The notes under the pieces were generated by a model, which did no database searches, was not told the origin of the DNA, and was given only the letters and a program-made list of their open reading frames with translations. A stretch of 64,000 bases of DNA, taken from the IMG/VR virus record IMGVR_UViG_3300010002_000010, positions 27,949-91,948 of that record, one strand, 5' to 3'. The position numbers and the translations under genes were made by a program. This DNA is from a virus (lineage: Duplodnaviria > Heunggongvirae > Uroviricota > Caudoviricetes). This document shows, piece after piece, positions 20,717 to 56,051 of the stretch (position 1 is its first letter; the number at the start of each line of letters is the position of its first letter).

Positions 20717-21319
20717 TTATTTAAGTGTCATTTTTTCAAAACATTTGTCACAAATTGACAAATATGATGATTTTGCCTCGAGGAAAGTATCGCCATCTGT
20801 TACAACATGACCATCAATGATCCGAGCATTGTTTTCGGCGTAATCCAAGCAGTCTGGCATTTGACACTCTGTTACAATGAACTCAATTTTAGGTCGAGCC
20901 TTAATCAAGGTAGTAATTGCTGGGAATTGCTCATTTTTAAAATCTCGATCTAATCCATAAATCTTTGTATTAAGATTTTTAATTTTTGTCCATTCAATAA
21001 TAATCTCCATTTGATCTGGTGTTAAAAATTGAGCTTCATCAATTAAAACGGTTGAATTTTCTTTGATTCTTGAAAGATACACATTTAAAAAAACAACGCC
21101 TTCTTTTGAATTAATTGGAATGGCGGCGACTTCTCTTCCGTCTCGAGAAGTAATTTTTGTAAAATCAAGTGATACACTGTATGAATCTAGCGATCCAGCA
21201 AACAACCAAATCATTTCTATTTTGGTGTTTTTAGAAAGATCTGTTAAATAATCAATTAATTGCTTTGTCTTTCCCGCGCCCATTAAACCTGTAATGAAAT
21301 GTAAATTTTTGTTTTCCAT
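20717..21319 (-). CDS. tdk: thymidine kinase
   Basis: P-loop GLMGAGKT, VLIDEAQF and C-terminal Cys pairs; start set to the ATG at 21319 (7 nt from ggag). Confidence 0.85.
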   Translation of the reverse strand: MENKNLHFITGLMGAGKTKQLIDYLTDLSKNTKIEMIWLFAGSLDSYSVSLDFTKITSRDGREVAAIPINSKEGVVFLNVYLSRIKENSTVLIDEAQFLTPDQMEIIIEWTKIKNLNTKIYGLDRDFKNEQFPAITTLIKARPKIEFIVTECQMPDCLDYAENNARIIDGHVVTDGDTFLEAKSSYLSICDKCFEKMTLK

Positions 21320-21403
21320 CATCAATCTCCTATCAAAGTGCTTTATTCCTTACATTTATATTATACTTGATCTTTCAAAATGAGAAAGAAAAATAAAAAA
21401 AAA

Positions 21404-27985: not shown

Positions 27986-29045
27986 TGTTTTCCAAAATAC
28001 AGATCCAAAGAGAAGGCAGATATTCATCTCAATCATCAAGATCAAAGTATAGCCCGCAATGTGTGGAAGTGAGAATGCATCATGTGATCCAAATTTTTCA
28101 ATCTGGCATGGACTATATCTTTACAATGCGATCCAATTATTTAAATTTGAAATAGGGCGCCCGTCGAAAGCTATTTGATCTTTGAATATTTACTTCAATA
28201 TGATTCACCCGCTTATTTAACTCTTTCGCGGCTTCATATATATCTGTAAACTCTTTGATTAAAGATCCATCAATGTTAAAATACAAAATTGGTTTTCCAA
28301 CTAATTCTTGTTTGCGGTTTTTAATTCCGCCCACTTTTGCATTTATAGGACATTGTTTTTTACGCTTTTCGCTGGTTCGATTAATCAGTCCATTTTCTGA
28401 AGCATGTTTCATATTGCCCGCGTTATCTGTCCATTCTAAATTTGTATAATGGTTATTTTGTTTATTACCATCTAAATGGTTAACCACATTAAATTTATTA
28501 GGATCCGGGTTTTTAACAAACGTTTCACATACCAGCCGATGAATATATTTCTCAATTGGTCCTAATCTTGTTCTAAAATATCCATTAGGTAATAGAGTTT
28601 GCTTCTCAATTCGTTCTGGCCGTATATACTTTCTTCCGTCTGTTCCAATATGAATATGATTTAATCGTTTTACTTCACCGTTTTCCGAAACTAAAAAATT
28701 TGAATCATCTGCTGTTGTTTTCCATTCCATAAGAAACTCTCCTTATAAATGGATCGCATTGTACTTTGCTCTTCGAATAACGTACCAATAGTTATCCTAC
28801 TCTACTAACTTCCACAATTTCTGTGTGCTTTCGATAGTCTCTACACCTTCAATTAAGCTAGGCACGGTATTATCGGCTACCCATATTTCAGGGTTTAGAT
28901 TCTCTTAGTCAGCGGCTTCGTCTTTTGGTAAATCCTGTCATTTCCTTGTTAGGCTTGGACAGAAGTCTTATTCAACTGATACCGTTAGCATGATCTTAAG
29001 ATCATACACCCCTGGTTGGGTTCACAAAGTTAACGGGCAAGCTAT
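27986..29045 (-). mobile_element. group I intron (approximate bounds) in the polymerase gene, carrying an HNH homing endonuclease ORF
   Basis: ~1.06 kb interruption between aligned DnaE segments (...SYVWTYCLEPQF | ...ACLSVNSG...LPPDIN); ~310-nt GC-richer non-coding block at 28731-29045. Confidence 0.7.
28137..28730 (-). CDS. HNH homing endonuclease (intron-encoded)
   Basis: HNH-type motif ...VNHLDGNKQNNHYTNLEW...; RBS aaggagag. Confidence 0.75.
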   Translation of the reverse strand: MEWKTTADDSNFLVSENGEVKRLNHIHIGTDGRKYIRPERIEKQTLLPNGYFRTRLGPIEKYIHRLVCETFVKNPDPNKFNVVNHLDGNKQNNHYTNLEWTDNAGNMKHASENGLINRTSEKRKKQCPINAKVGGIKNRKQELVGKPILYFNIDGSLIKEFTDIYEAAKELNKRVNHIEVNIQRSNSFRRAPYFKFK

Positions 29046-31538
29046 TCACCCAAATTGTGGTTCTAGGCAATAAGTCCAAACATAGCTTAAGAATAAAACA
29101 CTTGTCCCAAGATCTTTTCCCTGTTCAAAGAATAATTCTTTTTGCTCCGCAATGAGCTCTTTATTCTGTTTAGCTACGGCTTTCCGGAATTTATTGGCTT
29201 GAGTTAATGTGAACCCTGAGATTTTTTGATCCATCGAGATCTCCATAAGACCTTCTTGTGTATCGCAGATTCCGTATCGATCATTTAGGTGGTTAATTAG
29301 AATATTTTTTTCGTCTTCAGTTAAATTATTTTCGTCCATTTCTTTATACCAAAGAGAAATATCATTCTTAAATTCAACATATTTATCGATCGGTTGTTTT
29401 CCTGAAGTTGTTAATCGCATCAATGAGTTACCCGCAGATAATTCATCAAAAGATTGCGGTTTAATTTTGTTCAGTGCACTAATACCAACATTGGTTTCAA
29501 ATTGGAAAGCATTGAATACCTCACCTTTTGCAAGCATTTCGTACATTTGCGGATCTTGCATCTCTAAAACATCTGGATGAAGATATTTTTCATAAGTCTC
29601 CCGCAGAGTACCTTGCCATTCAATTTTACCGTATTCTTCCAATAAAGCCATAGCTTCACGGATCCGCCCAAGTGCATCAACTGAAAGGAAATCTAATTTT
29701 AAACCGCCCAATGCTTCTGTATCTTTTGCATCGAATTGAGTAACCGCTAATCCTTTTGTTGTTTGCATTAATACATTTTGTTCGATATATCCGTTAGGGA
29801 AAATTACAATTCCTGAAGCGTGCTGAGATCGACCAGAAATTAATCCTTCAATTGAAAGCAAAGCATCTCGCAATCCTTCATGACTATCAACCTCATTAAT
29901 AAACTCTTGAACAGGACGGCGTTTTTCTTCTTCGTTTCCAAAGAGACAATCTCGAATTGGCCAGTTTTCTGCTTTTTCTTTTGGAATTAGGTTTGCAATA
30001 TTCATTGCAATATCTTTATCAATATCTAATCCACGGCAAGCAGTTAATACAGATGATCGGGATTTTTCTGTTGTAAATGTTCCCATGTTCAAAACATTTT
30101 CTTCGCCAAACTCTTTTTTAATAAGTTCAACAATTTCCAATCGTTTTGATCCTTCAGTATCAATGTCAATATCTGGCAACTCTACCCGCTCTTTTGACAA
30201 GAAACGCCAGTGAGGAAGTTTATATTTAATTGGGTTGATTTGAACAATATCTAACAAATAGTTTGTGTAATAACAACTTGCTGATCCACGAGAAACTCCG
30301 ACCAGCGAAACTTTCCACATAATATCAACTACTTGCTTTGTTAAGGTAAAGTAAGAAGATAGCGGTTGGTTAAGTGCTTTGGAAATATGCCAGATCTCAT
30401 TTAGCTCGGTATTAATACGATCAAGGTTTTCATGATTGTATTCTTCGTTCCGTCGAACCATTCCCTCTTCAATTAGCTTCAAATAATAACGGTCAACAAG
30501 GTTTGGGCTGTTTTTAAATTCACCAATATAGTTGTATGCAATGGTAAACTTATCAAATGAAGTTGCTTCTGTAAAGTCTGCTGGAATCTTCGTATTTGGA
30601 ACTTTAATTGGCTGATCCAAACTATATGATTCAATTTTGCTTTGGATCTCAATTGTATTTTTTGCCAACACCCGAAGTAGATTATCTGGGAAAAATTCAA
30701 GCAGTTCATCGTATGACATTACATAAGTTGTTCCATAGAATTGATCGACTTCTCGCTCTCCTTCTGAGGCTTGCAAATATGCGCGGTGTTGATCTTGGAA
30801 ACCTTTATTCAAATAATGGGCATCTGTGGCGACAATACATTTCACATTGTACACTTCTGATAATTTCAAAAGCATGCGGTTTGCCGTGTGTTGATCTTTT
30901 TGGTAAGATGGTTGAAGCTCAAAATAGAAATCAGTTCCAAACAAGCCTTTCATCAAAGTAACAAAATCGTGCATTTTCTTTTTTAATTCCTGCGATGGGT
31001 TTTCATCATAAGCAATTAAATATTGCGGTAGTTCTCCACCAACACAAGCAGTAGTTGCGATAAGATCTCCTGAATATTCTTGCATAATTTCATAAAGATC
31101 ATCTTTATATGTTGGAACACGGAACATACCGTTTTGGTAAAATCCATTTTTCCAAGCTTTTGATGATAGGATTTTAAGAGCTTTATAACCGCGTTCATTT
31201 TTAGCAATTAAAATGAAATGAGGATATTTAATTTTAGTGCCGTTTTCGAGGCTATCTTCTACTTTATCACGGTCAAGAAGATAGATCTCATTACCAAGTC
31301 CAATTGAATAATCATCAGGTAATTTACCTGCTTCTTTTTGCTTTTTAACATATTTTAATAATTTTACATGATTTGACAAAGCTTCATGATCGGTGCAAAC
31401 AAACCCCTTCAAACCAATTTCTGCGGTATAATCAACTAACATTGTGATCTTGTTAATCGCATCACGTAGACGGAAATTGCTTGCATCAGAGTGAGAATGT
31501 GTTAAGAAAATATTTTTATATTCTGGCAGTGTATTCAT
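29046..31538 (-). CDS. dnaE: DNA polymerase III alpha (DnaE)-like polymerase, exon 1 (PHP domain plus palm and fingers)
   Basis: PHP motifs HSHSDAS...CTDHE; C-terminal ...LSYVWTYCLEPQF aligns with DnaE ...VSYQTAWLKAHYPAEF; RBS aggagga. Confidence 0.8.
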   Translation of the reverse strand: MNTLPEYKNIFLTHSHSDASNFRLRDAINKITMLVDYTAEIGLKGFVCTDHEALSNHVKLLKYVKKQKEAGKLPDDYSIGLGNEIYLLDRDKVEDSLENGTKIKYPHFILIAKNERGYKALKILSSKAWKNGFYQNGMFRVPTYKDDLYEIMQEYSGDLIATTACVGGELPQYLIAYDENPSQELKKKMHDFVTLMKGLFGTDFYFELQPSYQKDQHTANRMLLKLSEVYNVKCIVATDAHYLNKGFQDQHRAYLQASEGEREVDQFYGTTYVMSYDELLEFFPDNLLRVLAKNTIEIQSKIESYSLDQPIKVPNTKIPADFTEATSFDKFTIAYNYIGEFKNSPNLVDRYYLKLIEEGMVRRNEEYNHENLDRINTELNEIWHISKALNQPLSSYFTLTKQVVDIMWKVSLVGVSRGSASCYYTNYLLDIVQINPIKYKLPHWRFLSKERVELPDIDIDTEGSKRLEIVELIKKEFGEENVLNMGTFTTEKSRSSVLTACRGLDIDKDIAMNIANLIPKEKAENWPIRDCLFGNEEEKRRPVQEFINEVDSHEGLRDALLSIEGLISGRSQHASGIVIFPNGYIEQNVLMQTTKGLAVTQFDAKDTEALGGLKLDFLSVDALGRIREAMALLEEYGKIEWQGTLRETYEKYLHPDVLEMQDPQMYEMLAKGEVFNAFQFETNVGISALNKIKPQSFDELSAGNSLMRLTTSGKQPIDKYVEFKNDISLWYKEMDENNLTEDEKNILINHLNDRYGICDTQEGLMEISMDQKISGFTLTQANKFRKAVAKQNKELIAEQKELFFEQGKDLGTSVLFLSYVWTYCLEPQFG

Positions 31539-33458: not shown

Positions 33459-33953
33459 TTATTTTTCCTCCATTTTAAAGTTATCCATTGCAATATTTAC
33501 CAAAAGATCCGCTCGGTTGTTACCTTCATTATCTGAGTGGCCTTTTACTTTTACAAAATCGATCCATTCAAACTTTTCCATTTCTAAGAGCAGTCGTTCC
33601 CATAATTCTTTATTAGCGACAGGTTTTTTGGCAGTTGTTCTCCAACCATTCATTTGCCAAAGTTTATAACTTTCTTTTTTGATCGCATTAATTACATACG
33701 CGGAATCCGAATGAATTACAACCGGAACCTCTTTTTTGGTAATTGCTACCATGGCGGCGATAATAGCTTTCATCTCCATCTGGTTATTTGTTACCCCGAC
33801 TTCTGCTCGAGAATATTCTTTTTCGTGACCTTTGAAAGTAAGAATACATGCCCAAGCACCAATTGCATTTTTCTTGCCGTTCCCGCGAACTCCGCCATCT
33901 ACCCAGCAATGAATGGCAGTTTTCTTTGTATCAATAAATCCTGTTTTGTTCAT
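33459..33953 (-). CDS. rnhA: ribonuclease HI
   Basis: DGG..G...G, TNN.MEM.A, HSDS.Y and KGH..N.GN..AD RNase HI signature blocks. Confidence 0.85.
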   Translation of the reverse strand: MNKTGFIDTKKTAIHCWVDGGVRGNGKKNAIGAWACILTFKGHEKEYSRAEVGVTNNQMEMKAIIAAMVAITKKEVPVVIHSDSAYVINAIKKESYKLWQMNGWRTTAKKPVANKELWERLLLEMEKFEWIDFVKVKGHSDNEGNNRADLLVNIAMDNFKMEEK

Positions 33954-34804
33954 TTGAATTCCCTCCAGAATTTTATTTGCAGTTTCTTATAAACAATTCT
34001 ATTTCTTGAATATTCAATAATTGTTGTTCTTGGAACACTATAACCTTTTTCCAATAATTTTTTACCCAAATCATCAGCGCCACGGCCAGATAAAACCTCA
34101 TTTGTTTCAAGAATTTGAGCAAACATTATTTTTGAATTTGGATTATCTTTTCCAAATTTACCGTACATAGAATTTTTGGCGCCGGTTCGATCCGTTGGAT
34201 TTTCTTTTTTAGTTTTACTAATTTTTTCAAGGGTTTTTTTAGAATGTTTTTTTCCAAAAAATGGATTGTTTGATCCTGAGAAATCAATGCTTTTAGTTCT
34301 CATACCGTTTTTATCGCCGGTAATCTTATGACCTTGACCAAACATACTATTCCCTGATCCAGCCATTTGTTCACTTCGCATTTTTCGAATGCGGTTCATT
34401 TGTTTATCAGAATATCCTGCGTATGGATTTCCTTGATAGCCACCATCTTTTAGATTATACCAATCTCGATCTTTAACGGCGTCAAAAACTGTGTTAATAT
34501 AATGACGCTCCATTATTTCAAGATCCTCATAGGTTTTGCAAAGATGTATAATTCTTCTTTCAAAGCTCTCTTTACCATGTTTTTTGATAGCTTTTGCAAG
34601 AACAGTTCCACTGCCTAAATATGCTTTCATCCAACTAGTATGTTGGCCAACATATTTTCTTCCGTTGTTTTTATTTATAGTCACATAAATAAAACCTGCA
34701 TACATTTCTCTATCAATGCTTTCAAAATCATGGTTTTCCATATCCTGACAGATCAAACGATATTCGTCATCATTGTCAGGATTCCAATTGGAATGGCCAT
34801 TCAT
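33950..34804 (-). CDS. free-standing GIY-YIG homing endonuclease with NUMOD3-like repeats
   Basis: GFIYVTINKNNGRKYVGQ (GIY...YVG); three N.x(F/Y)G.....K repeats (NSMFGQGHK, NNPFFGKKHSKKT, NSMYGKFGK). Confidence 0.8.
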   Translation of the reverse strand: MNGHSNWNPDNDDEYRLICQDMENHDFESIDREMYAGFIYVTINKNNGRKYVGQHTSWMKAYLGSGTVLAKAIKKHGKESFERRIIHLCKTYEDLEIMERHYINTVFDAVKDRDWYNLKDGGYQGNPYAGYSDKQMNRIRKMRSEQMAGSGNSMFGQGHKITGDKNGMRTKSIDFSGSNNPFFGKKHSKKTLEKISKTKKENPTDRTGAKNSMYGKFGKDNPNSKIMFAQILETNEVLSGRGADDLGKKLLEKGYSVPRTTIIEYSRNRIVYKKLQIKFWREFK

Positions 34805-34806
34805 TT

Positions 34807-35265
34807 TTATAAAACTCCTTCCGCGATCAGTCTACTTACAATGTGCTCAACTGATTCTTTTGAAGTATCAACAGTGATTACATTCAGACGAGAATTTTTG
34901 ACTTCTTTCTCATAAACTTCTTTATGATAATTAAAATCTAAAACTTCATGGCCTGATCTCCAGCATCTTTCAACAAGAACATCAGTATCACAATCAAGGT
35001 AAATGGTTTGTGTCATTGGTCTTTTCCGCGATGACATCATTTCCAAAGCATCCAGCATAACCAATCCAGATTCCATCGATTCATATGATCGAATTAGATC
35101 CTCGCTTCGGTTAAAAATCTTGGCATAGGTTTTAAATCCAATTGGACCACGATCTACAATGACGTGTTGATAATTTGTTTGGCGGTTAATTTCATCCCAC
35201 ATAGTTCCTTTACCTGATCGGTCAACACCTTCGAGGATAATCATTTTGCAATATTTGTCTTCCAT
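34807..35265 (-). CDS. thymidylate-kinase-like P-loop dNMP kinase
   Basis: IILEGVDRSGKGT P-loop typical of Tmk; short at 152 aa. Confidence 0.55.
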   Translation of the reverse strand: MEDKYCKMIILEGVDRSGKGTMWDEINRQTNYQHVIVDRGPIGFKTYAKIFNRSEDLIRSYESMESGLVMLDALEMMSSRKRPMTQTIYLDCDTDVLVERCWRSGHEVLDFNYHKEVYEKEVKNSRLNVITVDTSKESVEHIVSRLIAEGVL

Positions 35266-46486: not shown

Positions 46487-47419
46487 TTAAGAACTACATG
46501 CTAAACAGTTATCTTCATATTTTTTATCCCAAGTACGAGTGTAGTAAGATGTCTTAATACCTTTTTTCCAAGCTCGAACATGAAGCGAAAGCAACTTTTT
46601 AGCCGATGTTCCTTGTGGTACATAGAAATTAAATGATGATGCTTGATCGACAAAAATCTGACGAGCCGCGTTATGGTCAATAGCAAATTCATGGGCAAGA
46701 CCTTCATCAGCTTTTTTCATTTTCATAGTTGGTTTGTAGTAATGCCATGTTACAGGGTTTAGGTTTGGCACAATCAATGGAAGCATGAAATCTTTTTTGC
46801 GCTCCATGAAGATTACATCAAAGATTGGATCAATTCCGGCGGTAGATCCAGCAATTACCGAAGTGGCTCCGGTTGGCGCAGGTGATCGAAGATAACCATT
46901 CCGCATACAGCGTGAAGCCATTTTTTGAACAATCTCCCATAAAGGGTGATTCAAATGACCATCTGCTTTTCGTTTTTCAAACCATTCACCAGTCTGCCAT
47001 TCAGATCCTTCAAATACTTTATAAGATCCTTTTTCTTTTCCAAGAATTGATGAGTTCATGATTGTATAAAGCATGATTTCTTCCTCAAGTTCCTGAATGT
47101 ATTTTGTGGCTTCTTCTGAATCCCAATCGAGTTGTTTATCAGCAAGCAAAGCCGCGATTCCTTGTTCTCCAGCACCAACAGCTCGATATTTTTTATTGGT
47201 AAACTCTGCTTGTGGAACAGGTGCTGTTTGTAATGAAATTACATTATCCAACGCTCGCATTTGAATTGCGATAATACGATCAAGAACGTCATCACGGACA
47301 ACATTATTCAGAACCAACGATGAAAGGTTACAGGTAACTAGATCACCAATTGATTTAGTAATGATTACTTTTTCATTAGCCCAATCAATCTCTTGTTGTT
47401 CAACATTTGATGGGGACAT
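46487..47419 (-). CDS. nrdE: ribonucleotide reductase alpha subunit NrdE, exon 2 (C-terminal part; true 5' splice boundary lies a few codons inside the frame, near ...QEIDW)
   Basis: ...EIDW...LVTCNLSSLVL matches the post-SNLC-x-EI region and the second catalytic Cys loop. Confidence 0.8.
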   Translation of the reverse strand: MSPSNVEQQEIDWANEKVIITKSIGDLVTCNLSSLVLNNVVRDDVLDRIIAIQMRALDNVISLQTAPVPQAEFTNKKYRAVGAGEQGIAALLADKQLDWDSEEATKYIQELEEEIMLYTIMNSSILGKEKGSYKVFEGSEWQTGEWFEKRKADGHLNHPLWEIVQKMASRCMRNGYLRSPAPTGATSVIAGSTAGIDPIFDVIFMERKKDFMLPLIVPNLNPVTWHYYKPTMKMKKADEGLAHEFAIDHNAARQIFVDQASSFNFYVPQGTSAKKLLSLHVRAWKKGIKTSYYTRTWDKKYEDNCLACSS

Positions 47420-48361
47420 GTTCTGCCCAATTTCAGTCCTGCATATTCCCTCTAGCTCGCTATGCTAGAAGCGTCACTCTTGGTGACTGCTATATGTTGC
47501 CATATAGAGTAGACTATATCATGATCTTAAATTAAGATCCCTTGCTTTTCCATTTAAGAGGTTTTACACTACCTTATTACGGTAACACCTCACCCCAATA
47601 GCTTGGGCTGTACTCTACTCCCTTAACCTTTCGGCGGTTTCGATAGTCGTTCGGCATTTATTAATCAATCTTATCAAGCATATTTCCAATCAGGATATTT
47701 TTCACTTTTTAACTTATACAGAACGCCACTCTTACTTTTATATCCTAACTTCTTCGCGGCTTCAGTAATACTTTCATATTCAATACTATTAATAATACAT
47801 TTTTTGGAATTTGCTTCTTTTACGCTGTTAATCATTTTTTGTGATTTTGGTTTACCATATTGATGGTTTCCAGATCCAGACATTTGATCCACTCTCATTT
47901 GTCTAATTCCTTCTTTATTTGGATGACCTGTAAAAACATCACCACCAATTGAAGAGAGTTTAATATTATAGAAGTCTTTTGAATTTACGGCATCGAACAT
48001 TAAAATATAATATTCTTCAACTTCTCTTAACTCTTTTTCATTATCACATTCATCAATAATGATCTTGTAAAAGTTTTCTTTCCCATATTTATTGATTGCT
48101 CTTTTTAAATAAACTCCGCTTCCTAAATACTTTTCCCATGAGTTTATTCTTGAATAAACACATTTTCCAACATATTTTTTACCAGTAAGTTTATTAATTG
48201 TGATATAAACAAAACCATATTTCAAGTTTTTATTCTCCATTCTTAAATGCCAATAAAAGAATGATAAGATTGATTAAATTTAGCACGGGATTGTCCTCAT
48301 GGGATATTCCCCGTTTAACAAGGTTTTTCGATAAGCTTTTCAGCTTAAAGGTGCTAAGAAA
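47420..48361 (-). mobile_element. group I intron (approximate bounds) in nrdE, carrying a GIY-YIG endonuclease ORF
   Basis: Exon 1 ends ...YSSNLC followed by a stop; the obligatory xEI continuation is found ~940 nt downstream; non-coding blocks flank the GIY-YIG ORF. Confidence 0.75.
47674..48240 (-). CDS. GIY-YIG homing endonuclease (intron-encoded)
   Basis: YGFVYITINKLTGKKYVGK (GIY...YVG motif); 188 aa. Confidence 0.8.
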   Translation of the reverse strand: MENKNLKYGFVYITINKLTGKKYVGKCVYSRINSWEKYLGSGVYLKRAINKYGKENFYKIIIDECDNEKELREVEEYYILMFDAVNSKDFYNIKLSSIGGDVFTGHPNKEGIRQMRVDQMSGSGNHQYGKPKSQKMINSVKEANSKKCIINSIEYESITEAAKKLGYKSKSGVLYKLKSEKYPDWKYA

Positions 48362-49783
48362 TTAACACAGGTTAGATGAGTAAATCATACCGGCATGTTT
48401 ATTTGGGTTATTACGGTTTACTGTATCGCGGTAGAACATATATGGTGTTCCTGTTTCAAGCTGAGAAATCTCAAACTTTTTAACAAGATCCAAAGCGTTT
48501 ACACGTGTTTTTGCTAATTCTTGGTTATCAATACATAATTGGTAATGATAAGTCCAAGCATGATCTGTTGGATTTGGTTTTTCTTTCTCACCAAGAAGCT
48601 TATTATCGTAAAAGTCTTCTAAATGGAATCCCATAACATCTTTGATTTCATGCGGATCAAACAAATACCAGTCGCCTCGTTTTTCAATTTGACGCATAAA
48701 TTCATCTGGAATTGTGATCCCTGTGAATAATTCATGAGCCCGTTCTGCCTTGTCACCGGTATTTAATCGCAACTCAAGGAAACGAACAATATCTTTATGC
48801 CAAATATCAAGATAAACAGCGATCGCACCAGGACGAACACCTAATTGATCGACTGAAACGGCTGTGTTATTTAATTGGCGGATCCAAGGAATTACACCTG
48901 ATCCAACACCATGGAACCCTTTAATCGAAGATCCTCGACCGCGAACTTTACCAAGATAGACACCAAGTCCAGCACCATTTTTACTGAAAGTTGCAATATC
49001 TGTATTGTCATCATAGATCCCGCGAAGTGAATCAGGTGTTGTAACAACGTAACAACTCGATAAACCCCCATCAATTCGTCCCGCATTTGATAATGTTGGT
49101 GTCGCCAGTGTGAGATAAAGATTTGATAATGCAAAGTACAATTCTTTGACATGATCCATTCGATCTTTTTTCTCTTCCATCATTAATGTCAAAGCCGCGA
49201 TCATAAACCGTTCTTGCGGTAGCTCATAAATCGATTTATCAAAATCTTTTACCAAATACCGATTTGCAAGTGCTTGGATTCCAGCAAAATCAAATAGTTC
49301 ATCTTTTGATGGATCAATCATTTGACCAGCAAGGATTAGATCTTCCCGGGTATAATTTTTTAATAATTCAGGTGTGTAAAGACGTTTATCTGTCAACGTT
49401 TTAATGAGGCCATAAAAATCACCATACATTAGTTTTGAATCATAAAAACGGTTTTTAGAGGCTCGCTTGTATAATTCTTGTTGAAAAATATATCGTGCCA
49501 TTTTTGTCCAGTTTACATTCAGTAATGTTTCGCTAGAAACTACACCATCTTCGTTTTTGATCCGATTAGCCAGAACAGTAGATTCTTGAATTAAAATCTT
49601 GCGGATGTCTTTGGCTTCAATATCCGGTCGTTGAGAAATTAAGCGGATTACTTTTTCAGCATATTCGCTTTTTGTTTCTTCTGGTAGTTTAACTTTTTCA
49701 AATCCTTTTCCAATAAAATCCATTAAACGTGAAGCGCTAAATTCCATTGATCGTTGCCCGTTATCTTTTAAAACCGTTGTCAT
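48362..49783 (-). CDS. nrdE: ribonucleotide reductase alpha subunit NrdE, exon 1 (N-terminal 473 aa ending SSNLC)
   Basis: Class I RNR alpha architecture ending at the active-site SNLC; RBS aaaggagag. Confidence 0.85.
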   Translation of the reverse strand: MTTVLKDNGQRSMEFSASRLMDFIGKGFEKVKLPEETKSEYAEKVIRLISQRPDIEAKDIRKILIQESTVLANRIKNEDGVVSSETLLNVNWTKMARYIFQQELYKRASKNRFYDSKLMYGDFYGLIKTLTDKRLYTPELLKNYTREDLILAGQMIDPSKDELFDFAGIQALANRYLVKDFDKSIYELPQERFMIAALTLMMEEKKDRMDHVKELYFALSNLYLTLATPTLSNAGRIDGGLSSCYVVTTPDSLRGIYDDNTDIATFSKNGAGLGVYLGKVRGRGSSIKGFHGVGSGVIPWIRQLNNTAVSVDQLGVRPGAIAVYLDIWHKDIVRFLELRLNTGDKAERAHELFTGITIPDEFMRQIEKRGDWYLFDPHEIKDVMGFHLEDFYDNKLLGEKEKPNPTDHAWTYHYQLCIDNQELAKTRVNALDLVKKFEISQLETGTPYMFYRDTVNRNNPNKHAGMIYSSNLC

Positions 49784-49844
49784 ATTAGTTTTACTCTCCT
49801 TTTAAAATACAGTATAGCGAGGAAATTAATCCCCGCTATCTTTT

Positions 49845-50897
49845 TTATGCTTCTGTTTGTGTTAGATCTTCTAATTGAAGAATTGCTTCTTGAAGTGTTC
49901 CAGTTTGATCCTTACGAGCATCCATAAGTTTTTTACCTGGTCCAAATACTTTTTCAATCGTACGTGTAAGCTCTTCCATGCGACCAGCTTTAGCAAGGAT
50001 TCCGCCAAGTTCTTTTGCTCGTTTCATTAAATCATCGAAATTAGCACCGTCAGCTTTTGCAAAATCATTTTCATGCTTTTCAGATACTTTTTGATCTTCA
50101 CCAATAAGATCGATTGCATCTTTCAATGCTTTTTTATATGCTTCAGCGTCTAGTGGAATTACTGGGGCAATTCCTTCAAAAGTAGATCCGGCTTGCCATT
50201 GAAGCGACTCTCGCAGGTGGATTACTCGCTGTTCATTCATTTCCGAGTCAACCGTCATATTCATAAAGAGAATGTTATCAACCATTTTGTTAATTGGTGC
50301 CATAACTTTTTCTTTAAGATCTGGTACAAACTTTTGGAACTCGTAGTATTCTTCTTTTGATTTTTTATCCGTTTTAAGAGTCATTGTTTCATCAATTGCA
50401 GATTCAAGCATTCCTGATTTAGGAATTTTTACAGTCTCTTTAATTGCGTGGCCAATAAATACAGGTGTATAACCAGCTTTTTCAATTTTTTGGAGACCGT
50501 CAACCCAGCTCTTTTTAAGATCTGTCCAGTCTTTACCCCATTCAACTTGACCAAATTCAGTTGTACCATATTTAGCAAGAATATGAAGCTCAAGCATTTT
50601 GTAGAGGTTTTCAACTGTATCAACCGCGACTACATCGTACCGCTCTTTAAGTTCTTTTTTCGTACGAAGCTGAGACATAACAGAAAGATAATCAGACCAA
50701 GTTTTAATATTTTGAACGTGTGCGCCGATCAAAACTTTATGACGGTTTTCAGTGGCTAGGAATAAAACTCGATCTCCATATAATCGACTTACGAAAGTTG
50801 TTTTACCAATCTTTGGTACTCCGAAAAGAAAGTTTGAATAAGATGAGATGTCAGATGATGCTTTTACCGGTTGTAGTTCTAAAAGATTAATTGCCAT
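49845..50897 (-). CDS. AAA_24-family ATPase (Sak4/RecA-like phage recombination-replication ATPase)
   Basis: Walker A FGVPKIGKTTF near the N-terminus; start at the ATG at 50897 with RBS aaatggagg. Confidence 0.55.
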   Translation of the reverse strand: MAINLLELQPVKASSDISSYSNFLFGVPKIGKTTFVSRLYGDRVLFLATENRHKVLIGAHVQNIKTWSDYLSVMSQLRTKKELKERYDVVAVDTVENLYKMLELHILAKYGTTEFGQVEWGKDWTDLKKSWVDGLQKIEKAGYTPVFIGHAIKETVKIPKSGMLESAIDETMTLKTDKKSKEEYYEFQKFVPDLKEKVMAPINKMVDNILFMNMTVDSEMNEQRVIHLRESLQWQAGSTFEGIAPVIPLDAEAYKKALKDAIDLIGEDQKVSEKHENDFAKADGANFDDLMKRAKELGGILAKAGRMEELTRTIEKVFGPGKKLMDARKDQTGTLQEAILQLEDLTQTEA

Positions 50898-50940
50898 TTT
50901 TGTTTCCTCCATTTAATTACGTTTTATTTCTTACTTTTAT

Positions 50941-50975: not shown

Positions 50976-51314
50976 TTATAATTCAATAAACAATTTTTCA
51001 AGATCATTTACATGAACAGCGCGGTCATCCAAATAGTAATGGGCAAATATTTTTCGTCCCTGACTACCTGCGATAAAGTAAGGATCTTCCGGATTCTCAT
51101 TAATATAATGAAATGGGATTTCATTTTCAATTAAAAACTCGTGCGCTTTAATCAAATGCTCACCTGATCGAGCCGTCCAGACAATAACCAAATGACCTTT
51201 TTCAAATGCCTGTTTCATAAATTCCAAAGTTCGAGGCTTAATAGCCCCGATACTTGGAAACCCTTCTTCAACAATTGTTCCATCAAAATCCACTGCCAAT
51301 GTTAATCGTTTCAA
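50976..51314 (-). CDS. HAD-superfamily phosphatase (possible nucleotidase)
   Basis: N-terminal DxDxT motif (LAVDFDGTIV); 112 aa. Confidence 0.55.
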   Translation of the reverse strand: MKRLTLAVDFDGTIVEEGFPSIGAIKPRTLEFMKQAFEKGHLVIVWTARSGEHLIKAHEFLIENEIPFHYINENPEDPYFIAGSQGRKIFAHYYLDDRAVHVNDLEKLFIEL

Positions 51315-51338
51315 AATAACTCCTCCAGTTATTAAAAC

Positions 51339-51752
51339 TTATTTTTCTTCTTCAGGTGTTTTTACAACCATTGTTACGATCGAATCATTTTTTGTTGGTG
51401 TAACAGGTCCAACATCCATTAAAGTAATATTGCCTTTTGCAATTGTTGGTTTTTTATTTTTATTTTTTTTAGTGTAATAAATGATCTGACCAAGCACAAC
51501 AACAGCCAAAGCAAAGTTTGCTAGCTCAGTTAAGAAATAACCAATTCCGTTGGGTGTTGTGATTAGCAAGTAAGTTGCATTTGACATCATACAGATCAGG
51601 AATCCAATAAGCAATACCCAAAAAGCAACCGACATATCTTTTACTGATTTTGTACGGTAAGTTTTAATGATCTGCGGTAGATATGTTAACGAGATCAAAA
51701 TTGTCGCTAGTACAGGAGCAATCACCGTTGCCCAGATTTTAAATAATTCCAT
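51339..51752 (-). CDS. PQ-loop (SemiSWEET/MtN3-like) three-TM membrane protein
   Basis: Three TMs with LPQIIKTYRTKS after TM1 (PQ motif); 137 aa. Confidence 0.5.
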   Translation of the reverse strand: MELFKIWATVIAPVLATILISLTYLPQIIKTYRTKSVKDMSVAFWVLLIGFLICMMSNATYLLITTPNGIGYFLTELANFALAVVVLGQIIYYTKKNKNKKPTIAKGNITLMDVGPVTPTKNDSIVTMVVKTPEEEK

Positions 51753-52282
51753 TATAAAGTTCCTCCAAATTCTTGATGATTATTAAGATCATCCACAATG
51801 TGTTTTAATGCTTCAATAGCTTCATAAGCATTGTTATAAATATCTCCGTAAGTTTGAACTAATCCTTTTGTATAAAGATTAATATAGAAGCGGTTGTCTC
51901 CGGTGCCATCTTTTCTAATATCGGAATAAATACCGATGATCGTTCGAAGTTTTGGCAATGATGAATGTCGACCTTCTGAATCAATCAGTGCGGAGAAATA
52001 TCCGATCTCTGAAGCAACTCCAGCATCAATTTCGACACCATCTAAACATGCAATCAATACATTTGATTCGTAAAGGTGTTTTGAATCTGCTTCAGCAATT
52101 GCCTTAGCAGTGATTACCGCATCATTTTTTGATTTATCATTAATATCTGCGTTTTCTTGCGGTACATAAAGATCAACATTAACCGCTTCACGAATTTCGC
52201 TTGCAATTTGATCTGTGTACAAGAACATTGCCTCTGAGAAAAAATTTGTCGCCAGGTAAACTTTCGGTAATGATTTTTTCAT
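51752..52282 (-). CDS. nucleoside 2-deoxyribosyltransferase-family protein (NDT/Rcl-like)
   Basis: KVYLATNFF (YLAxPxF-like) and LDGVEIDAGVASEIGYFSA; start at the ATG at 52282 with RBS atggagga. Confidence 0.55.
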   Translation of the reverse strand: MKKSLPKVYLATNFFSEAMFLYTDQIASEIREAVNVDLYVPQENADINDKSKNDAVITAKAIAEADSKHLYESNVLIACLDGVEIDAGVASEIGYFSALIDSEGRHSSLPKLRTIIGIYSDIRKDGTGDNRFYINLYTKGLVQTYGDIYNNAYEAIEALKHIVDDLNNHQEFGGTL

Positions 52283-52326
52283 TTTAATTTCCTCCATAGG
52301 AAAAGGGGAACAAGTCCCCTTCAGAT

Positions 52327-53151
52327 TTATTTTTTATCAACGATTACTGATCCAGCACCATCAACTTCAACATACGATCCATTCCATTTTTTAGCTTTTT
52401 CATATTCAACCAATTCTTTTGTGATTGATTTTGAAATTTCCACGTTAGCTTTAGCTTCCGCTTGAGCCTTGATTAATTTTTGTTCAGCTTCTGAGGTTGC
52501 TTGAACTTTTTTCTGTTCAGCCTCAGCTTTTGCAATTGCAAGATCTGTTTTCTTTTTATCAAGTTCTTGTGAAGCCTTTACTCGAGAATCAATTGCGGTT
52601 TGAGTTGCTTGGTCAGGTTTTGGTGCTCCAAGACCGATTTCTGAAATTTCAAAGCCTTTATCTAAAATGTTTTTAGAAAACAATTCTTTGATCTCAGCTT
52701 GGGCTTTACCAGATTTATTTCCGTAAATATCAATCAAACTGTAATTAGAGATTACATTTCGAGTTGCATCAAGCAAACGGCGTTTGATATATCCTTTTTC
52801 CAGTTCCTCAACAGGCAAAGATCCAAACTCTTTATAAATCGCAACTACATCAGTAGAGCTAATTGAATATGTGTAGTTAATATCCATTTCAATGTTTTTA
52901 CCGTCTGAAGTAGACACTACCATATTTTTAGAATCAACAGTACGAGATTTAGTTGGATATTCATTTACTTTATCGAACAATCCGATCACATGCCAACCAG
53001 GTGTTAAGACTTCATCTTTAACTCCACCAGATGCGGAATAAACAATGCCTACATTACCGTTATCAATTTTCTCTGTAAACAGTAAGAAGAATGCTAATCC
53101 TAAAATTAAACCTAAGCCAACAAGTGCTCCGCCTTTTTGTCCTGTACTCAT
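52327..53151 (-). CDS. SPFH/band-7 (stomatin/prohibitin-like) membrane protein
   Basis: N-terminal TM, SPFH core and a C-terminal Ala/Glu/Lys-rich coiled coil. Confidence 0.75.
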   Translation of the reverse strand: MSTGQKGGALVGLGLILGLAFFLLFTEKIDNGNVGIVYSASGGVKDEVLTPGWHVIGLFDKVNEYPTKSRTVDSKNMVVSTSDGKNIEMDINYTYSISSTDVVAIYKEFGSLPVEELEKGYIKRRLLDATRNVISNYSLIDIYGNKSGKAQAEIKELFSKNILDKGFEISEIGLGAPKPDQATQTAIDSRVKASQELDKKKTDLAIAKAEAEQKKVQATSEAEQKLIKAQAEAKANVEISKSITKELVEYEKAKKWNGSYVEVDGAGSVIVDKK

Positions 53152-53154
53152 AAG

Positions 53155-53316
53155 TTAAAAACCGTCCTCTTCATTATATTCATCATCGAGGTTTTCTCGA
53201 AGTGATTCTTTTTTATCTTCTATAACCGATCCAATTTCTTTAAAGAACGGTGATAACCAAACCCAAATTCCAAAAGTGATAATAAGGAATACAATCATCA
53301 TAAAAATCTGTCTCAT
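53155..53316 (-). CDS. small membrane protein (53 aa), translationally coupled upstream partner of the SPFH gene; not in the ORF track
   Basis: MRQIFMMIVFLIITFGIWVWLSPFF...; RBS aaagagg; ATGA overlap with 53313-53528. Confidence 0.4.
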   Translation of the reverse strand: MRQIFMMIVFLIITFGIWVWLSPFFKEIGSVIEDKKESLRENLDDEYNEEDGF

Positions 53317-55688: not shown

Positions 55689-56051
55689 TTATCCTTCAAA
55701 TTTTTTCGCGGCTTTAAGACTTACCATTGTTTCATTAATACATTCATAATCTATATAAACATTTGCAAGGATCCGACCAAAAGCATCATATTCTGTTGAT
55801 TGAATAACGACCTCTTTGTTTTCGATTAATCCAATTAACAAACTGCGGGCTTCATAAGCTTTTCTCTTTTCTTCGAGATTTTTAGATCGCATCTCTGGTG
55901 CATTGATATGAAGCATTCTTACATGAACATCTTCACGAATCATTTTAAATCCTAGATCTAGTCTTCCGACGAAAGTATCTCCGTCAATAACTCGATCAAC
56001 ATACATCTTATAATAATAAAGGTTATTTTCTTTAAAGTCATTCTGATCCAT
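55689..56051 (-). CDS. thermonuclease (staphylococcal nuclease-like)
   Basis: VIDGDTF...R and INAPE match the SNase catalytic core. Confidence 0.65.
   Translation of the reverse strand: MDQNDFKENNLYYYKMYVDRVIDGDTFVGRLDLGFKMIREDVHVRMLHINAPEMRSKNLEEKRKAYEARSLLIGLIENKEVVIQSTEYDAFGRILANVYIDYECINETMVSLKAAKKFEG

What the first reader, a model, noticed from the sequence alone, without database searches (positions are those of the whole stretch)
50976..52282. Nucleoside salvage/transport-like module: HAD phosphatase, PQ-loop (SemiSWEET-like) membrane protein and nucleoside 2-deoxyribosyltransferase-family enzyme
Three consecutive co-oriented genes lie just downstream of the nrd operon:
- a 112-aa DxDxT HAD phosphatase (nucleotidase-like);
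- a 137-aa three-TM protein with a PQ motif after TM1, the SemiSWEET/PnuC superfamily fold used for sugar and nicotinamide-riboside/nucleoside uptake;
- a protein with nucleoside deoxyribosyltransferase/Rcl-like motifs (YLATNFF, GYFSA).

Together with Tdk, Tmk-like, Gmk, Dut and MazG, this suggests the phage rewires deoxynucleoside pools by import, base exchange and dephosphorylation. That goes beyond the usual RNR/TS set. A PQ-loop transporter in a phage is unusual.
Basis: partly seen in the sequence, partly recalled or inferred. Interest (0 to 1): 0.6.

Follow-up and report, generated by a model that had tools for sequence, protein, structure and literature searches.

The report
Phage SemiSWEET-like protein coupled to deoxyribosyltransferase
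A phage carries a small sugar-transporter-like membrane protein whose gene is locked to, and in one relative fused with, a deoxynucleoside base-swapping enzyme, which suggests an undescribed way for phages to move DNA building blocks across the host membrane.

Summary
They encode an EfPDT-like nucleoside 2-deoxyribosyltransferase (NDT) with all six catalytic residues, a 3-TM PQ-loop/SemiSWEET-like protein, and a BT0820-type HAD phosphatase.

The new result is genetic linkage. The PQ gene starts on the NDT stop codon (ATAATG). Twelve dereplicated relatives have NDT directly upstream of PQ. All four close NDT homologues sampled independently have it too. One phage has the reverse order, one metagenomic protein is a PQ-NDT fusion, and one phage couples PQ to thymidine kinase instead. 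Distant PQ-loop genes in bacteria and giant viruses lack this linkage.

The clade is tiny, appears phage-restricted, and lacks the Trp/Asn sugar pocket of SemiSWEETs.

The best reading is a passive facilitator for deoxynucleosides or bases working with NDT and kinases in salvage. Substrate and direction are inferred, not shown.

Corrections: the module lies upstream of nrd in the direction of transcription, there is no PnuC or NT5C match, "MazG" is a dimeric-dUTPase-type protein, and "Tmk" is marginal.

The parts
51752..52282 (-). Nucleoside 2-deoxyribosyltransferase (NDT), 176 aa, EfPDT-like. An alternative upstream ATG lies at 52297.
   Evidence: PF05014 E=1.5e-13, above cut-off. phrog_1817 E=6.5e-30. 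PDB 7M5H (E. faecalis EfPDT) E=1.8e-20. All six EfPDT catalytic residues (Tyr5, Asp60, Asp80, Glu86, Asn130', Tyr132'; PMC12372993) are conserved, including the NLY motif. GGAGGA lies 8 nt before ATG 52282.
51339..51752 (-). PQ-loop / SemiSWEET-like 3-TM membrane protein, 137 aa: core residues 1-98 plus a disordered cytoplasmic tail, residues 101-137.
   Evidence: PF04193 E=7.7e-8, above cut-off. Family profile vs PDB: E. coli SemiSWEET 4X5M E=7.4e-8 over all 3 TMs, and the top six hits are all SemiSWEETs. AF2 model has helices 2-34, 42-65 and 69-98. Hydropathy and positive-inside rule give N-out/C-in. The ATG overlaps the NDT stop (ATAATG), with GGAGGA inside the NDT 3' end.
50976..51314 (-). 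Capless HAD phosphatase, BT0820 family, 112 aa, TTG start. An accessory member of the module.
   Evidence: NCBIfam NF046079 E=1.1e-21, below the equivalog cut-off. PDB 2OBB E=3e-13 with DFDGT, WTARS and K...DD motifs aligned. phrog_1238 E=9e-28. Present after PQ in L004/5, L006 and L163-L166; absent in GR1, L007, L011 and L012. GGAGGAG lies before the TTG.
52327..53151 (-). SPFH/Band_7 membrane protein, a conserved upstream neighbour. Context only, not shown to be functionally linked.
   Evidence: PF01145 E=7e-30. Found directly or nearly directly upstream of NDT in L004, L163, L164, L165 and L166, and 2 kb upstream in L007.
49845..50912 (-). Sak4-like AAA_24 ATPase, lying between the module and nrdE. 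Possibly in the same transcription unit.
   Evidence: PF13479 E=1.7e-29 and phrog_124. Syntenic in GR1, L004, L006, L007, L011, L012 and L163-L166.
52306..52319 (-). Weak terminator-like hairpin between SPFH and NDT.
   Evidence: Consensus scan only; sequence.
49814..49839 (-). Strong terminator-like hairpin (10-bp stem) after AAA_24. A plausible end of an NDT-PQ-HAD-AAA_24 transcript.
   Evidence: Consensus scan only.
20717..21325 (-). Thymidine kinase. A distal partner that could trap deoxynucleosides.
   Evidence: PF00265 E=2.5e-16. In L009 a TK gene overlaps the start of the PQ gene.
55689..56051 (-). Staphylococcal-nuclease-like protein. A possible source of 3'-dNMPs for the HAD (inference).
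   Evidence: The 95%-identical orthologue in L004 carries PF00565 SNase. The window copy was not scanned itself.

Best explanation
The locus is a phage deoxynucleoside-salvage cassette. Its conserved core is a catalytically intact, EfPDT-like NDT, co-translated with a phage-specific SemiSWEET-like membrane protein. A small BT0820-type HAD phosphatase is a frequent third member. I propose that the PQ protein forms a homodimeric passive facilitator, as SemiSWEETs do, for 2'-deoxynucleosides and/or their free bases. I propose that it hands substrate to, or takes product from, cytoplasmic NDT sitting at its C-terminal face. Net flux would be driven by metabolic trapping. NDT moves deoxyribose onto the bases the AT-rich phage needs. 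Thymidine kinase, the Gmk-like and Tmk-like kinases, and host kinases then phosphorylate the products. The HAD would convert nuclease-derived dNMPs, possibly 3'-dNMPs from the SNase-like enzyme, back to kinase- and NDT-competent deoxynucleosides. Shown: family identities, catalytic residues, topology, translational coupling, conserved linkage, one fusion and one TK pairing. Inferred: that PQ transports anything, its substrate, the direction, dimerisation, contact with NDT and the HAD substrate.
For: Identities. Coupling: the NDT stop overlaps the PQ start, with an SD inside NDT. The same overlap occurs in L004, L006, L007, GR1, L164, L165 and L166. Conservation: NDT lies directly upstream of PQ in 12 dereplicated loci whose AAA_24 identity falls to 37% and whose PQ identity falls to 39%. 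The slot after PQ and the upstream genes vary. Reverse test: 4 of 4 close NDT homologues chosen only for contig length have a PQ-family gene immediately downstream (E=1e-30 to 1e-38). Independent arrangements: Lietuvens has PQ, a small ORF, then NDT. L103/L104/L010 have a divergent NDT with a large insertion, different flanks, and PQ. L167/P0139 is a single 287-aa PQ::NDT polypeptide, an uninterrupted ORF whose contig was seen in two samples. In L009 a thymidine kinase gene overlaps PQ, with ThyX nearby and NDT 12 kb away. Specificity: about 140 distant PQ-loop loci from bacteria, archaea, giant viruses and metagenomes have no NDT, TK or HAD nearby. All three GenBank phages with this PQ clade encode NDT, while this NDT type hits only 72 of 50,697 phage records. 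Topology puts the C-terminus, and therefore the fused NDT, in the cytoplasm. Conserved polar residues lie inside the TMs: N58, Y72, E76 and N79. Precedents: SWEETs are bidirectional uniporters, and AtSWEET13 was crystallised with dCMP in its cavity (PMC8961523, PMC7176098). PnuC with NadR is a transporter-kinase trapping pair encoded by adjacent genes (PMC2330246). The window encodes TK, Gmk-like, dUTPase, ThyA, DHFR and NrdIEF.
Confidence: 0.5

Rival explanations
1. Same parts, opposite direction: a disposal route. The HAD dephosphorylates dNMPs released from host DNA. The PQ facilitator lets the deoxynucleosides or the bases released by NDT leave the cell. This would resemble phage T5, which makes a 5'-deoxyribonucleotidase and excretes host DNA breakdown products (my own knowledge; no paper found).
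For: SWEET-type carriers are bidirectional uniporters (PMC8961523). HAD follows PQ in seven lineages. An SNase-like nuclease is nearby. NDT releases a free base in each cycle.
Against: The phage invests in anabolic salvage and de novo enzymes: TK, Gmk-like, ThyA, DHFR and RNR. The TK-PQ pairing in L009 fits trapping of an incoming nucleoside, not export. HAD is missing from the GR1, L007, L011 and L012 lineages, which keep NDT-PQ.
Confidence: 0.15
2. PQ is not a transporter here. It is a membrane anchor or scaffold that tethers NDT, and perhaps a dNTP-synthesis or replication complex together with the neighbouring SPFH protein, to the membrane.
For: The fusion P0139 physically tethers NDT to the membrane. 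An SPFH/Band_7 scaffold gene is a conserved neighbour. The sugar-pocket Trp and Asn are lost. Variable cytoplasmic tails could be docking sites.
Against: The PQ hinge motif and several polar intramembrane residues (N58, Y72, N79) are invariant or nearly so down to 35% identity. That is unexpected for a passive anchor, for which one TM would suffice. TK pairing again points to a small-molecule link.
Confidence: 0.12
3. PQ is an ordinary sugar SemiSWEET that carries 2-deoxyribose or another sugar. NDT acts mainly as a nucleosidase, and the sugar or sugar phosphate is the traded metabolite after HAD action.
For: The best PDB and HMM matches are sugar SemiSWEETs. NDTs hydrolyse slowly without an acceptor (general enzymology; my knowledge). 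HAD could dephosphorylate deoxyribose phosphate.
Against: The TM2 Trp and TM3 Asn required for sugar transport (PMC8961523) align to M55 or N58 and to E76. The NCBIfam SemiSWEET score is far below cut-off, 27.6 vs 80. There is no benefit to the phage from moving deoxyribose. TK pairing is unexplained.
Confidence: 0.08
4. PQ imports nicotinamide riboside or another pyridine nucleoside, as a PnuC analogue, for NAD+ salvage or to counter NAD-depleting defence.
For: In Bacillus phage vB_BcoS-136 the PQ gene lies 3-4 kb from prs and nicotinamide phosphoribosyltransferase. PnuC forms a pore structurally similar to SWEETs (PMC7176098).
Against: No PnuC model matched. No NAD-salvage gene was seen in the window or in the other clade loci. 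Linkage is to NDT and TK, which act on 2'-deoxynucleosides.
Confidence: 0.03
5. The adjacency is inherited synteny with no functional meaning.
For: Ten of the NDT-PQ loci share one backbone, YorF-SPFH-NDT-PQ-AAA_24-RNR.
Against: The stop/start overlap is kept while flanking genes are swapped. NDT and PQ subtypes occur in mosaic combinations: L007 and L164-166. There are three further arrangements outside that backbone plus a fusion. Linkage is absent in about 140 distant PQ-loop loci.
Confidence: 0.02

Closest known systems
Bacterial SemiSWEET sugar uniporters (E. coli 4X5M, T. yellowstonii 4RNG, L. biflexa 4QNC; TC 2.A.123, Pfam PQ-loop/MtN3)
   Same: About 90-100-aa three-TM bundle, a PQ motif in TM1, and a basic TM1-TM2 loop. 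Profile match to 4X5M is E=7.4e-8 over all three TMs. It presumably forms a homodimeric pore.
   Different: It belongs to a phage-restricted clade with only 35 representatives at E<=1e-10 among 1.84 billion proteins. The sugar-pocket Trp and Asn are replaced (M55 or N58; E76), and new invariant residues appear at N58, G71-Y72 and N79. It has a longer TM2-TM3 loop and a variable cytoplasmic tail. It is genetically coupled to NDT or TK rather than to sugar genes. It scores below the NCBIfam SemiSWEET cut-off.
Enterococcus faecalis purine 2'-deoxyribosyltransferase EfPDT (PDB 7M5H; type I NDT, tetramer)
   Same: E=1.8e-20. All six active-site residues are conserved, including Tyr in place of Met in the NLM motif, and the N-terminal 100 residues are very similar.
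   Different: It is phage-encoded. The insertion region (residues about 95-125) differs. Specificity and oligomeric state are unknown. It is co-translated with a membrane protein, and in P0139 fused to it.
PnuC-NadR nicotinamide riboside uptake (facilitated diffusion plus kinase trapping)
   Same: The proposed logic is the same: a small passive carrier whose flux is driven by a cytoplasmic enzyme encoded next to it (nadR-pnuC clusters, PMC2330246). The TK-PQ pair in L009 is the closest parallel.
   Different: No PnuC HMM match. PnuC has 7-8 TMs, and its homology to SWEETs is disputed (PMC7176098). The partner here is mostly a transferase rather than a kinase.
BT0820 (PDB 2OBB) capless HAD phosphatase family; phrog_1238
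   Same: E=3e-13 to 2OBB with all four HAD motifs aligned. The family is widespread in phages, in 384 records.
   Different: It is below the NCBIfam equivalog cut-off. The substrate is unknown. Database labels ('phosphoheptose isomerase', 'putative 5'-nucleotidase', PNK phosphatase) conflict.
Phage-encoded NDTs in general (Lactococcus 949 group, Bacillus, Vibrio, Kayvirus; dZ-phage NDT-M2)
   Same: Same Pfam and PHROG family. One phage NDT has been shown to be a dA-preferring type I enzyme (bioRxiv 10.1101/2025.10.22.683976).
   Different: Those NDTs have no PQ-loop partner. This window shows no PurZ/PurA P-loop motif, so the dZ link does not apply.

Membership tests
SemiSWEET / PQ-loop (PF04193, TC 2.A.123) | Significant match to the family model | tested here: met
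   PF04193 32.4 bits vs cut-off 22, E=7.7e-8. Family profile vs E. coli SemiSWEET 4X5M is E=7.4e-8 over the full length, and the top six PDB hits are all SemiSWEETs.
SemiSWEET / PQ-loop (PF04193, TC 2.A.123) | Single three-TM helix bundle of about 90-100 aa with a PQ motif in TM1 | tested here: met
   Helices 2-34, 42-65 and 69-98. Three hydropathy peaks. P26-Q27 are invariant in 13 sequences.
SemiSWEET / PQ-loop (PF04193, TC 2.A.123) | NCBIfam SemiSWEET_2 subfamily cut-off | tested here: not met
   27.6 bits vs cut-off 80, with only TM1 matched.
SemiSWEET / PQ-loop (PF04193, TC 2.A.123) | TM2 Trp and TM3 Asn that form the sugar site (PMC8961523) | tested here: not met
   In the profile alignments, Trp aligns with M55 (4RNG, 4QNC) or N58 (4X5M), and Asn aligns with E76 (Tyr in the GR1 type). 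The register in TM3 could be off by one turn (N79), so this rests on low-identity alignments.
SemiSWEET / PQ-loop (PF04193, TC 2.A.123) | Structural similarity to solved SemiSWEET/SWEET bundles | tested here: inconclusive
SemiSWEET / PQ-loop (PF04193, TC 2.A.123) | Homodimeric pore and facilitated diffusion of a solute | not testable with these tools
   Needs multimer modelling, cross-linking and transport assays.
Nucleoside 2-deoxyribosyltransferase (EC 2.4.2.6, PF05014) | Match to the family model and to a characterised enzyme | tested here: met
   PF05014 51.3 bits vs 28.8. 7M5H EfPDT E=1.8e-20 and 7O62 DpNDT E=7e-8.
Nucleoside 2-deoxyribosyltransferase (EC 2.4.2.6, PF05014) | Glu nucleophile plus Tyr, Asp, Asp and the trans-subunit Asn-x-Tyr/Met | tested here: met
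   Y, D, D, E, N and Y are all conserved at the EfPDT positions 5, 60, 80, 86, 130 and 132.
Nucleoside 2-deoxyribosyltransferase (EC 2.4.2.6, PF05014) | Acts on deoxynucleosides rather than dNMPs (i.e. not DNPH1/Rcl or MilB type) | tested here: inconclusive
   No DNPH1 or MilB chain appears at E<=1 in the PDB search, and the nearest relatives are true transferases. Phosphate-binding motifs were not examined residue by residue.
Nucleoside 2-deoxyribosyltransferase (EC 2.4.2.6, PF05014) | Transglycosylation activity and base specificity (type I vs II) | not testable with these tools
   Needs enzymology.
HAD phosphatase, BT0820 family (NF046079) | HAD motifs I-IV (DxDxT, T/S, K, DD) | tested here: met
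   D9-F-D11-G-T13, W-T47-A-R-S, and K...Y-L-D96-D97 aligned to 2OBB.
HAD phosphatase, BT0820 family (NF046079) | NCBIfam equivalog cut-off | tested here: not met
   77.6 bits vs cut-off 165. It is a related family member, not an equivalog.
   No NT5C family is listed at E<=1 in Pfam. There is a weak PHROG similarity to PNK phosphatase (phrog_415, E=2.5e-6).
PnuC nicotinamide-riboside transporter | Match to a PnuC model; 7-8 TM architecture | tested here: not met
   No PnuC family at E<=1, and only 3 TMs.

The most novel reading that the evidence does not exclude
The PQ dimer and NDT form a physical complex that works as a vectorial deoxyribosyl-transfer machine. A deoxynucleoside or base passing through the SemiSWEET-like pore is delivered straight into the NDT active site. 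Uptake would then be chemically coupled to base exchange, a group-translocation-like step with the displaced base possibly leaving by the same pore. This would be the first nucleoside or base substrate and the first defined physiological role for a prokaryote-type SemiSWEET, and the first phage-encoded nucleoside transporter.
Probability: 0.15. Interest if true: 0.8.

Novelty: new variant of a known kind. Interest (0 to 1): 0.62.

Why it matters
Phage auxiliary genes for nucleotide metabolism are well known, but they are almost all soluble enzymes. Phage-encoded solute carriers are rare. I found no paper on a phage SemiSWEET or PQ-loop protein. The physiological roles of bacterial SemiSWEETs are also poorly defined.

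A small clade of SemiSWEET-like proteins is locked to a deoxyribosyltransferase, fused to it once, and paired with thymidine kinase once. This gives a concrete, cheaply testable hypothesis for a new substrate class in this fold. It also suggests how phages of Bacillus-like hosts tap or vent deoxynucleoside pools.

At about 95 aa it would be a minimal nucleoside or base carrier. That would be of interest for nucleoside-analogue biocatalysis, where NDTs are already used. The result also shows that standard Pfam annotation misses most members of the clade (3 of 4).

Tried and rejected
2. Search for bacterial members or prophage copies in 185k species genomes. This gave only distant TM1-level hits with no NDT, TK or HAD nearby.
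3. Metagenome and second IMG/VR scans added few clade members. L161 and L102 were uninformative.
4. Search for more PQ-NDT fusions. None appeared among the top 120 homologues of NDT or of the fusion itself, so the fusion remains n=1.
5. A remembered link between PnuC-like proteins, NrdR and deoxynucleoside uptake could not be confirmed in the paper found, so I dropped it.
6. I found no searchable paper for BT0820 or for the T5 deoxyribonucleotidase. The T5 precedent is cited from my own knowledge only.
7. The dZ (diaminopurine) reading of the NDT is rejected, because there is no PurA/PurZ P-loop motif in any frame.
8. A holin or lysis role for the 3-TM protein was considered and rejected. The gene sits in the replication and nucleotide module, not a lysis cassette, and matches a transporter family.
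9. My early view of the HAD as rarely present was revised. It is present in 7 lineages, including all four found through NDT, but absent from the GR1-type lineages.
Full report
OBSERVATION

The window is a 33.6% G+C phage replication and nucleotide-metabolism region, transcribed almost entirely from the minus strand. Three consecutive minus-strand ORFs lie at the reported position:
- NDT at 51752-52282.
- A 137-aa membrane protein at 51339-51752.
- A 112-aa HAD protein at 50976-51314, with a TTG start preceded by GGAGGAG.

The NDT stop and the membrane-protein start overlap (ATAATG). The Shine-Dalgarno sequence for the second gene lies inside the end of the first, which is a classic translational-coupling arrangement.

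In the direction of transcription the order is SPFH/Band_7, NDT, PQ, HAD, Sak4-like AAA_24 ATPase, then nrdE. The nrdE gene is split by a GIY-YIG endonuclease gene and is followed by nrdF and nrdI. The module is therefore upstream of nrd, not downstream. Terminator-like hairpins suggest an NDT-PQ-HAD-AAA_24 unit, but this is a consensus scan only.

WHAT THE THREE PROTEINS ARE

NDT. It scores PF05014 E=1.5e-13 and phrog_1817 E=6.5e-30. Its closest solved relative is Enterococcus faecalis EfPDT (7M5H, E=1.8e-20), a purine-specific type I tetrameric NDT. The active site of EfPDT is Tyr5, Asp60, Asp80, Glu86, Asn130' and Tyr132' (PMC12372993). All six residues are conserved in the window protein, including the unusual NLY variant of the NLM motif. 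It is therefore very probably an active deoxyribosyl-transferring enzyme. Base specificity cannot be read from sequence.

Membrane protein. It scores PF04193 PQ-loop E=7.7e-8, above the gathering cut-off. A profile built from 13 family members matches E. coli SemiSWEET (4X5M) at E=7.4e-8 across all three helices, and the six best PDB hits are all SemiSWEETs. AlphaFold gives three long helices with core pLDDT of 71-82 and a disordered tail at residues 101-137. Hydropathy and the positive-inside rule give N-out/C-in topology. Structure searches with the monomer were not discriminating.

There is an important difference from sugar SemiSWEETs. The TM2 Trp and TM3 Asn that SemiSWEETs need for sugar transport (PMC8961523) align with M55 or N58 and with E76 (Tyr in the GR1 type). 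The clade has its own invariant polar residues: N58, G71-Y72 and N79. It also falls far below the NCBIfam SemiSWEET cut-off. No PnuC model matches, and PnuC-SWEET homology is itself disputed (PMC7176098).

HAD. It belongs to the BT0820 family: NF046079 E=1e-21 (below the equivalog cut-off) and PDB 2OBB E=3e-13, with all four HAD motifs aligned. Homologues occur in 384 phage records under conflicting labels. No NT5C-type nucleotidase model matched.

WINDOW CONTEXT

Thymidine kinase, a guanylate-kinase-like protein, dUTPase, ThyA, DHFR, NrdI and NrdE/F are confirmed. The "MazG" is a PF08761 dimeric-dUTPase-type protein. The "Tmk-like" protein scores 26.7 bits against a cut-off of 27.

THE MAIN NEW RESULT: LINKAGE OF PQ TO NDT

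The window has no close relative among GenBank phages. Only three distinct GenBank phages encode this PQ clade:
- In Geobacillus phage GR1, NDT and PQ overlap in the same order and are followed by AAA_24 and RNR.
- In Sporosarcina phage Lietuvens the order is reversed, as PQ, a 66-aa ORF, then NDT. The pair follows RNR, PhoH and dUTPase.
- In Bacillus phage vB_BcoS-136 the two genes lie 13 kb apart.

Contigs carrying PQ homologues of 58-66% identity (L004-L007) all show NDT ending where PQ begins. IMG/VR and metagenome scans added four more cases:
- L011 and L012.
- The L103/L104/L010 lineage. Its NDT is highly diverged and carries a large insertion, and its flanking genes are different.

Reverse test. 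I took four close NDT homologues (50-62% identity), chosen only because they sit on long contigs. All four have a PQ-family gene immediately downstream, scoring E=1e-30 to 1e-38 with an HMM built from the family. All four also have the HAD. The precomputed Pfam annotation had missed three of these four PQ genes.

Mosaic combinations occur. L007 has a GR1-type NDT with a window-type PQ, and L164-166 show the converse. The slot after PQ varies between HAD, HAD with an extra domain, and unrelated small ORFs. The NDT-PQ junction persists throughout.

Two findings outside this pattern are the most informative:
- An exhaustive profile search of 1.84 billion representative proteins found only 35 family members at E<=1e-10. 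One of them, P0139 (287 aa), is a single polypeptide with an N-terminal PQ domain and a C-terminal NDT domain (PF04193 E=9e-9; PF05014 E=6.5e-15). Its DNA (L167) is an uninterrupted 864-nt ORF with a ribosome-binding site, and the contig was recorded in two samples. The predicted topology puts the NDT domain in the cytoplasm.
- In L009 the gene overlapping the PQ start is thymidine kinase (PF00265 E=1e-34), not NDT. ThyX lies nearby, and an NDT lies 12 kb away on the same contig.

By contrast, about 140 distant PQ-loop loci show no NDT, TK or HAD in their flanks. These come from bacteria, archaea, giant viruses and other metagenomic contigs. Most phage NDTs have no PQ partner.

Tally of dereplicated clade loci:

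| Arrangement | Loci |
|---|---|
| NDT directly upstream of PQ | 12 |
| PQ, small ORF, NDT | 1 |
| PQ::NDT fusion | 1 |
| TK-PQ (NDT elsewhere on the contig) | 1 |
| NDT 13 kb from PQ | 1 |
| Uninformative | 2 |

Caveat: ten of the twelve share one syntenic backbone, with AAA_24 identity falling to 37%. The number of independent events is therefore about five, not fourteen.

MECHANISM

NDT and TK have one thing in common: both use 2'-deoxynucleosides. SWEET-type carriers are passive, bidirectional uniporters (PMC8961523). A SWEET cavity can hold a deoxynucleotide, as shown by AtSWEET13 crystallised with dCMP.

The most economical reading is that the PQ protein is a dimeric facilitator for deoxynucleosides and/or free bases. 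Flux would be driven by cytoplasmic conversion. NDT re-partitions deoxyribose among bases, and TK and other kinases trap the products. The logic resembles PnuC-NadR.

The HAD, together with the nearby SNase-like nuclease, could turn nuclease-derived dNMPs back into deoxynucleosides. If the nuclease behaves like staphylococcal nuclease these would be 3'-dNMPs. This step is inference.

Direction is not determined. An export or disposal role (T5-like, from my own knowledge) is the main rival. A pure scaffold role, a sugar or deoxyribose role, and an NR-import role are less likely, for the reasons given under the rival explanations.

COMPARISON AND NOVELTY

Each family is known, and GenBank records already label such genes "PQ loop repeat protein" and "nucleoside 2-deoxyribosyltransferase". 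Full-text searches found no description of phage SemiSWEETs or of their coupling to NDT.

I file the membrane protein as a divergent PQ-loop/SemiSWEET-family member by sequence and architecture. I do not file it as a sugar SemiSWEET, because the defining sugar-pocket residues were tested and not met. The finding is a new variant of a known kind.

VERDICT

Interest is 0.62.

Noticed in passing
window 46487-49783 (-): nrdE is split into two ORFs (48362-49783 for the N-terminal part, 46487-47419 for the C-terminal barrel) with a GIY-YIG homing-endonuclease-like gene (47674-48240) between them. This is likely an intron or split-gene arrangement. Relatives L004, L007 and GR1 have an intact nrdE of 788-789 aa.
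   Followed up: partly
window 26747-31538 (-): A PHP-domain DNA polymerase III alpha-like gene appears to be split (29046-31538 and 26747-28045) by an HNH/NUMOD-like endonuclease ORF (28137-28730). This was judged by eye from the translations, not by HMM.
   Followed up: no
window 52327-53316 (-); L004, L007, L163-L166: An SPFH/Band_7 protein, preceded by a 51-57-aa single-TM ORF (53155-53316 in the window), is a conserved neighbour just upstream of NDT-PQ in most relatives. It is possibly a membrane-microdomain partner of the PQ protein.
   Followed up: partly
L007, L164-L166 vs window and L001: NDT and PQ subtypes are mosaic. L007 pairs a GR1-type NDT (68% identity) with a window-type PQ (58%). 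L164-166 pair window-type NDTs (53-59%) with L010/GR1-like PQs. This implies recombination at or near the gene junction while adjacency is kept.
   Followed up: partly
L164 5146-5730: The HAD orthologue here is 194 aa, with an extra C-terminal domain of about 80 aa and unknown function. A 92-aa acidic ORF separates it from PQ.
   Followed up: no
P0131, P0133, P0143, P0148, P0150; window PQ residues 101-137: Clade members carry unrelated C-terminal cytoplasmic tails of 30-80 aa on an otherwise conserved 95-aa core. In the window protein the tail is predicted to be disordered.
   Followed up: no
L163-L166 gene tables: The precomputed Pfam annotation lists no PQ-loop hit for three of four clade members that score E~1e-30 with a clade HMM. 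Domain-based surveys will therefore undercount this family.
   Followed up: yes
L168 2773-3549: The TK-PQ phage (IMG/VR 3300043749 contig) encodes an Anti-Pycsar Apyc1-like metallo-beta-lactamase-fold protein about 2 kb upstream of its NDT.
   Followed up: no
L003 (Bacillus phage vB_BcoS-136): Here the PQ gene sits between a PNK/RNA-ligase pair and ClpP, 3-4 kb from prs and nicotinamide phosphoribosyltransferase. This context differs from all other clade members.
   Followed up: partly
window 33950-35265 (-): The marginal Tmk-like gene (34807-35265) is immediately followed by another GIY-YIG-type endonuclease-like ORF (33950-34804). The window therefore holds at least three homing-endonuclease-like genes.
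   Followed up: no
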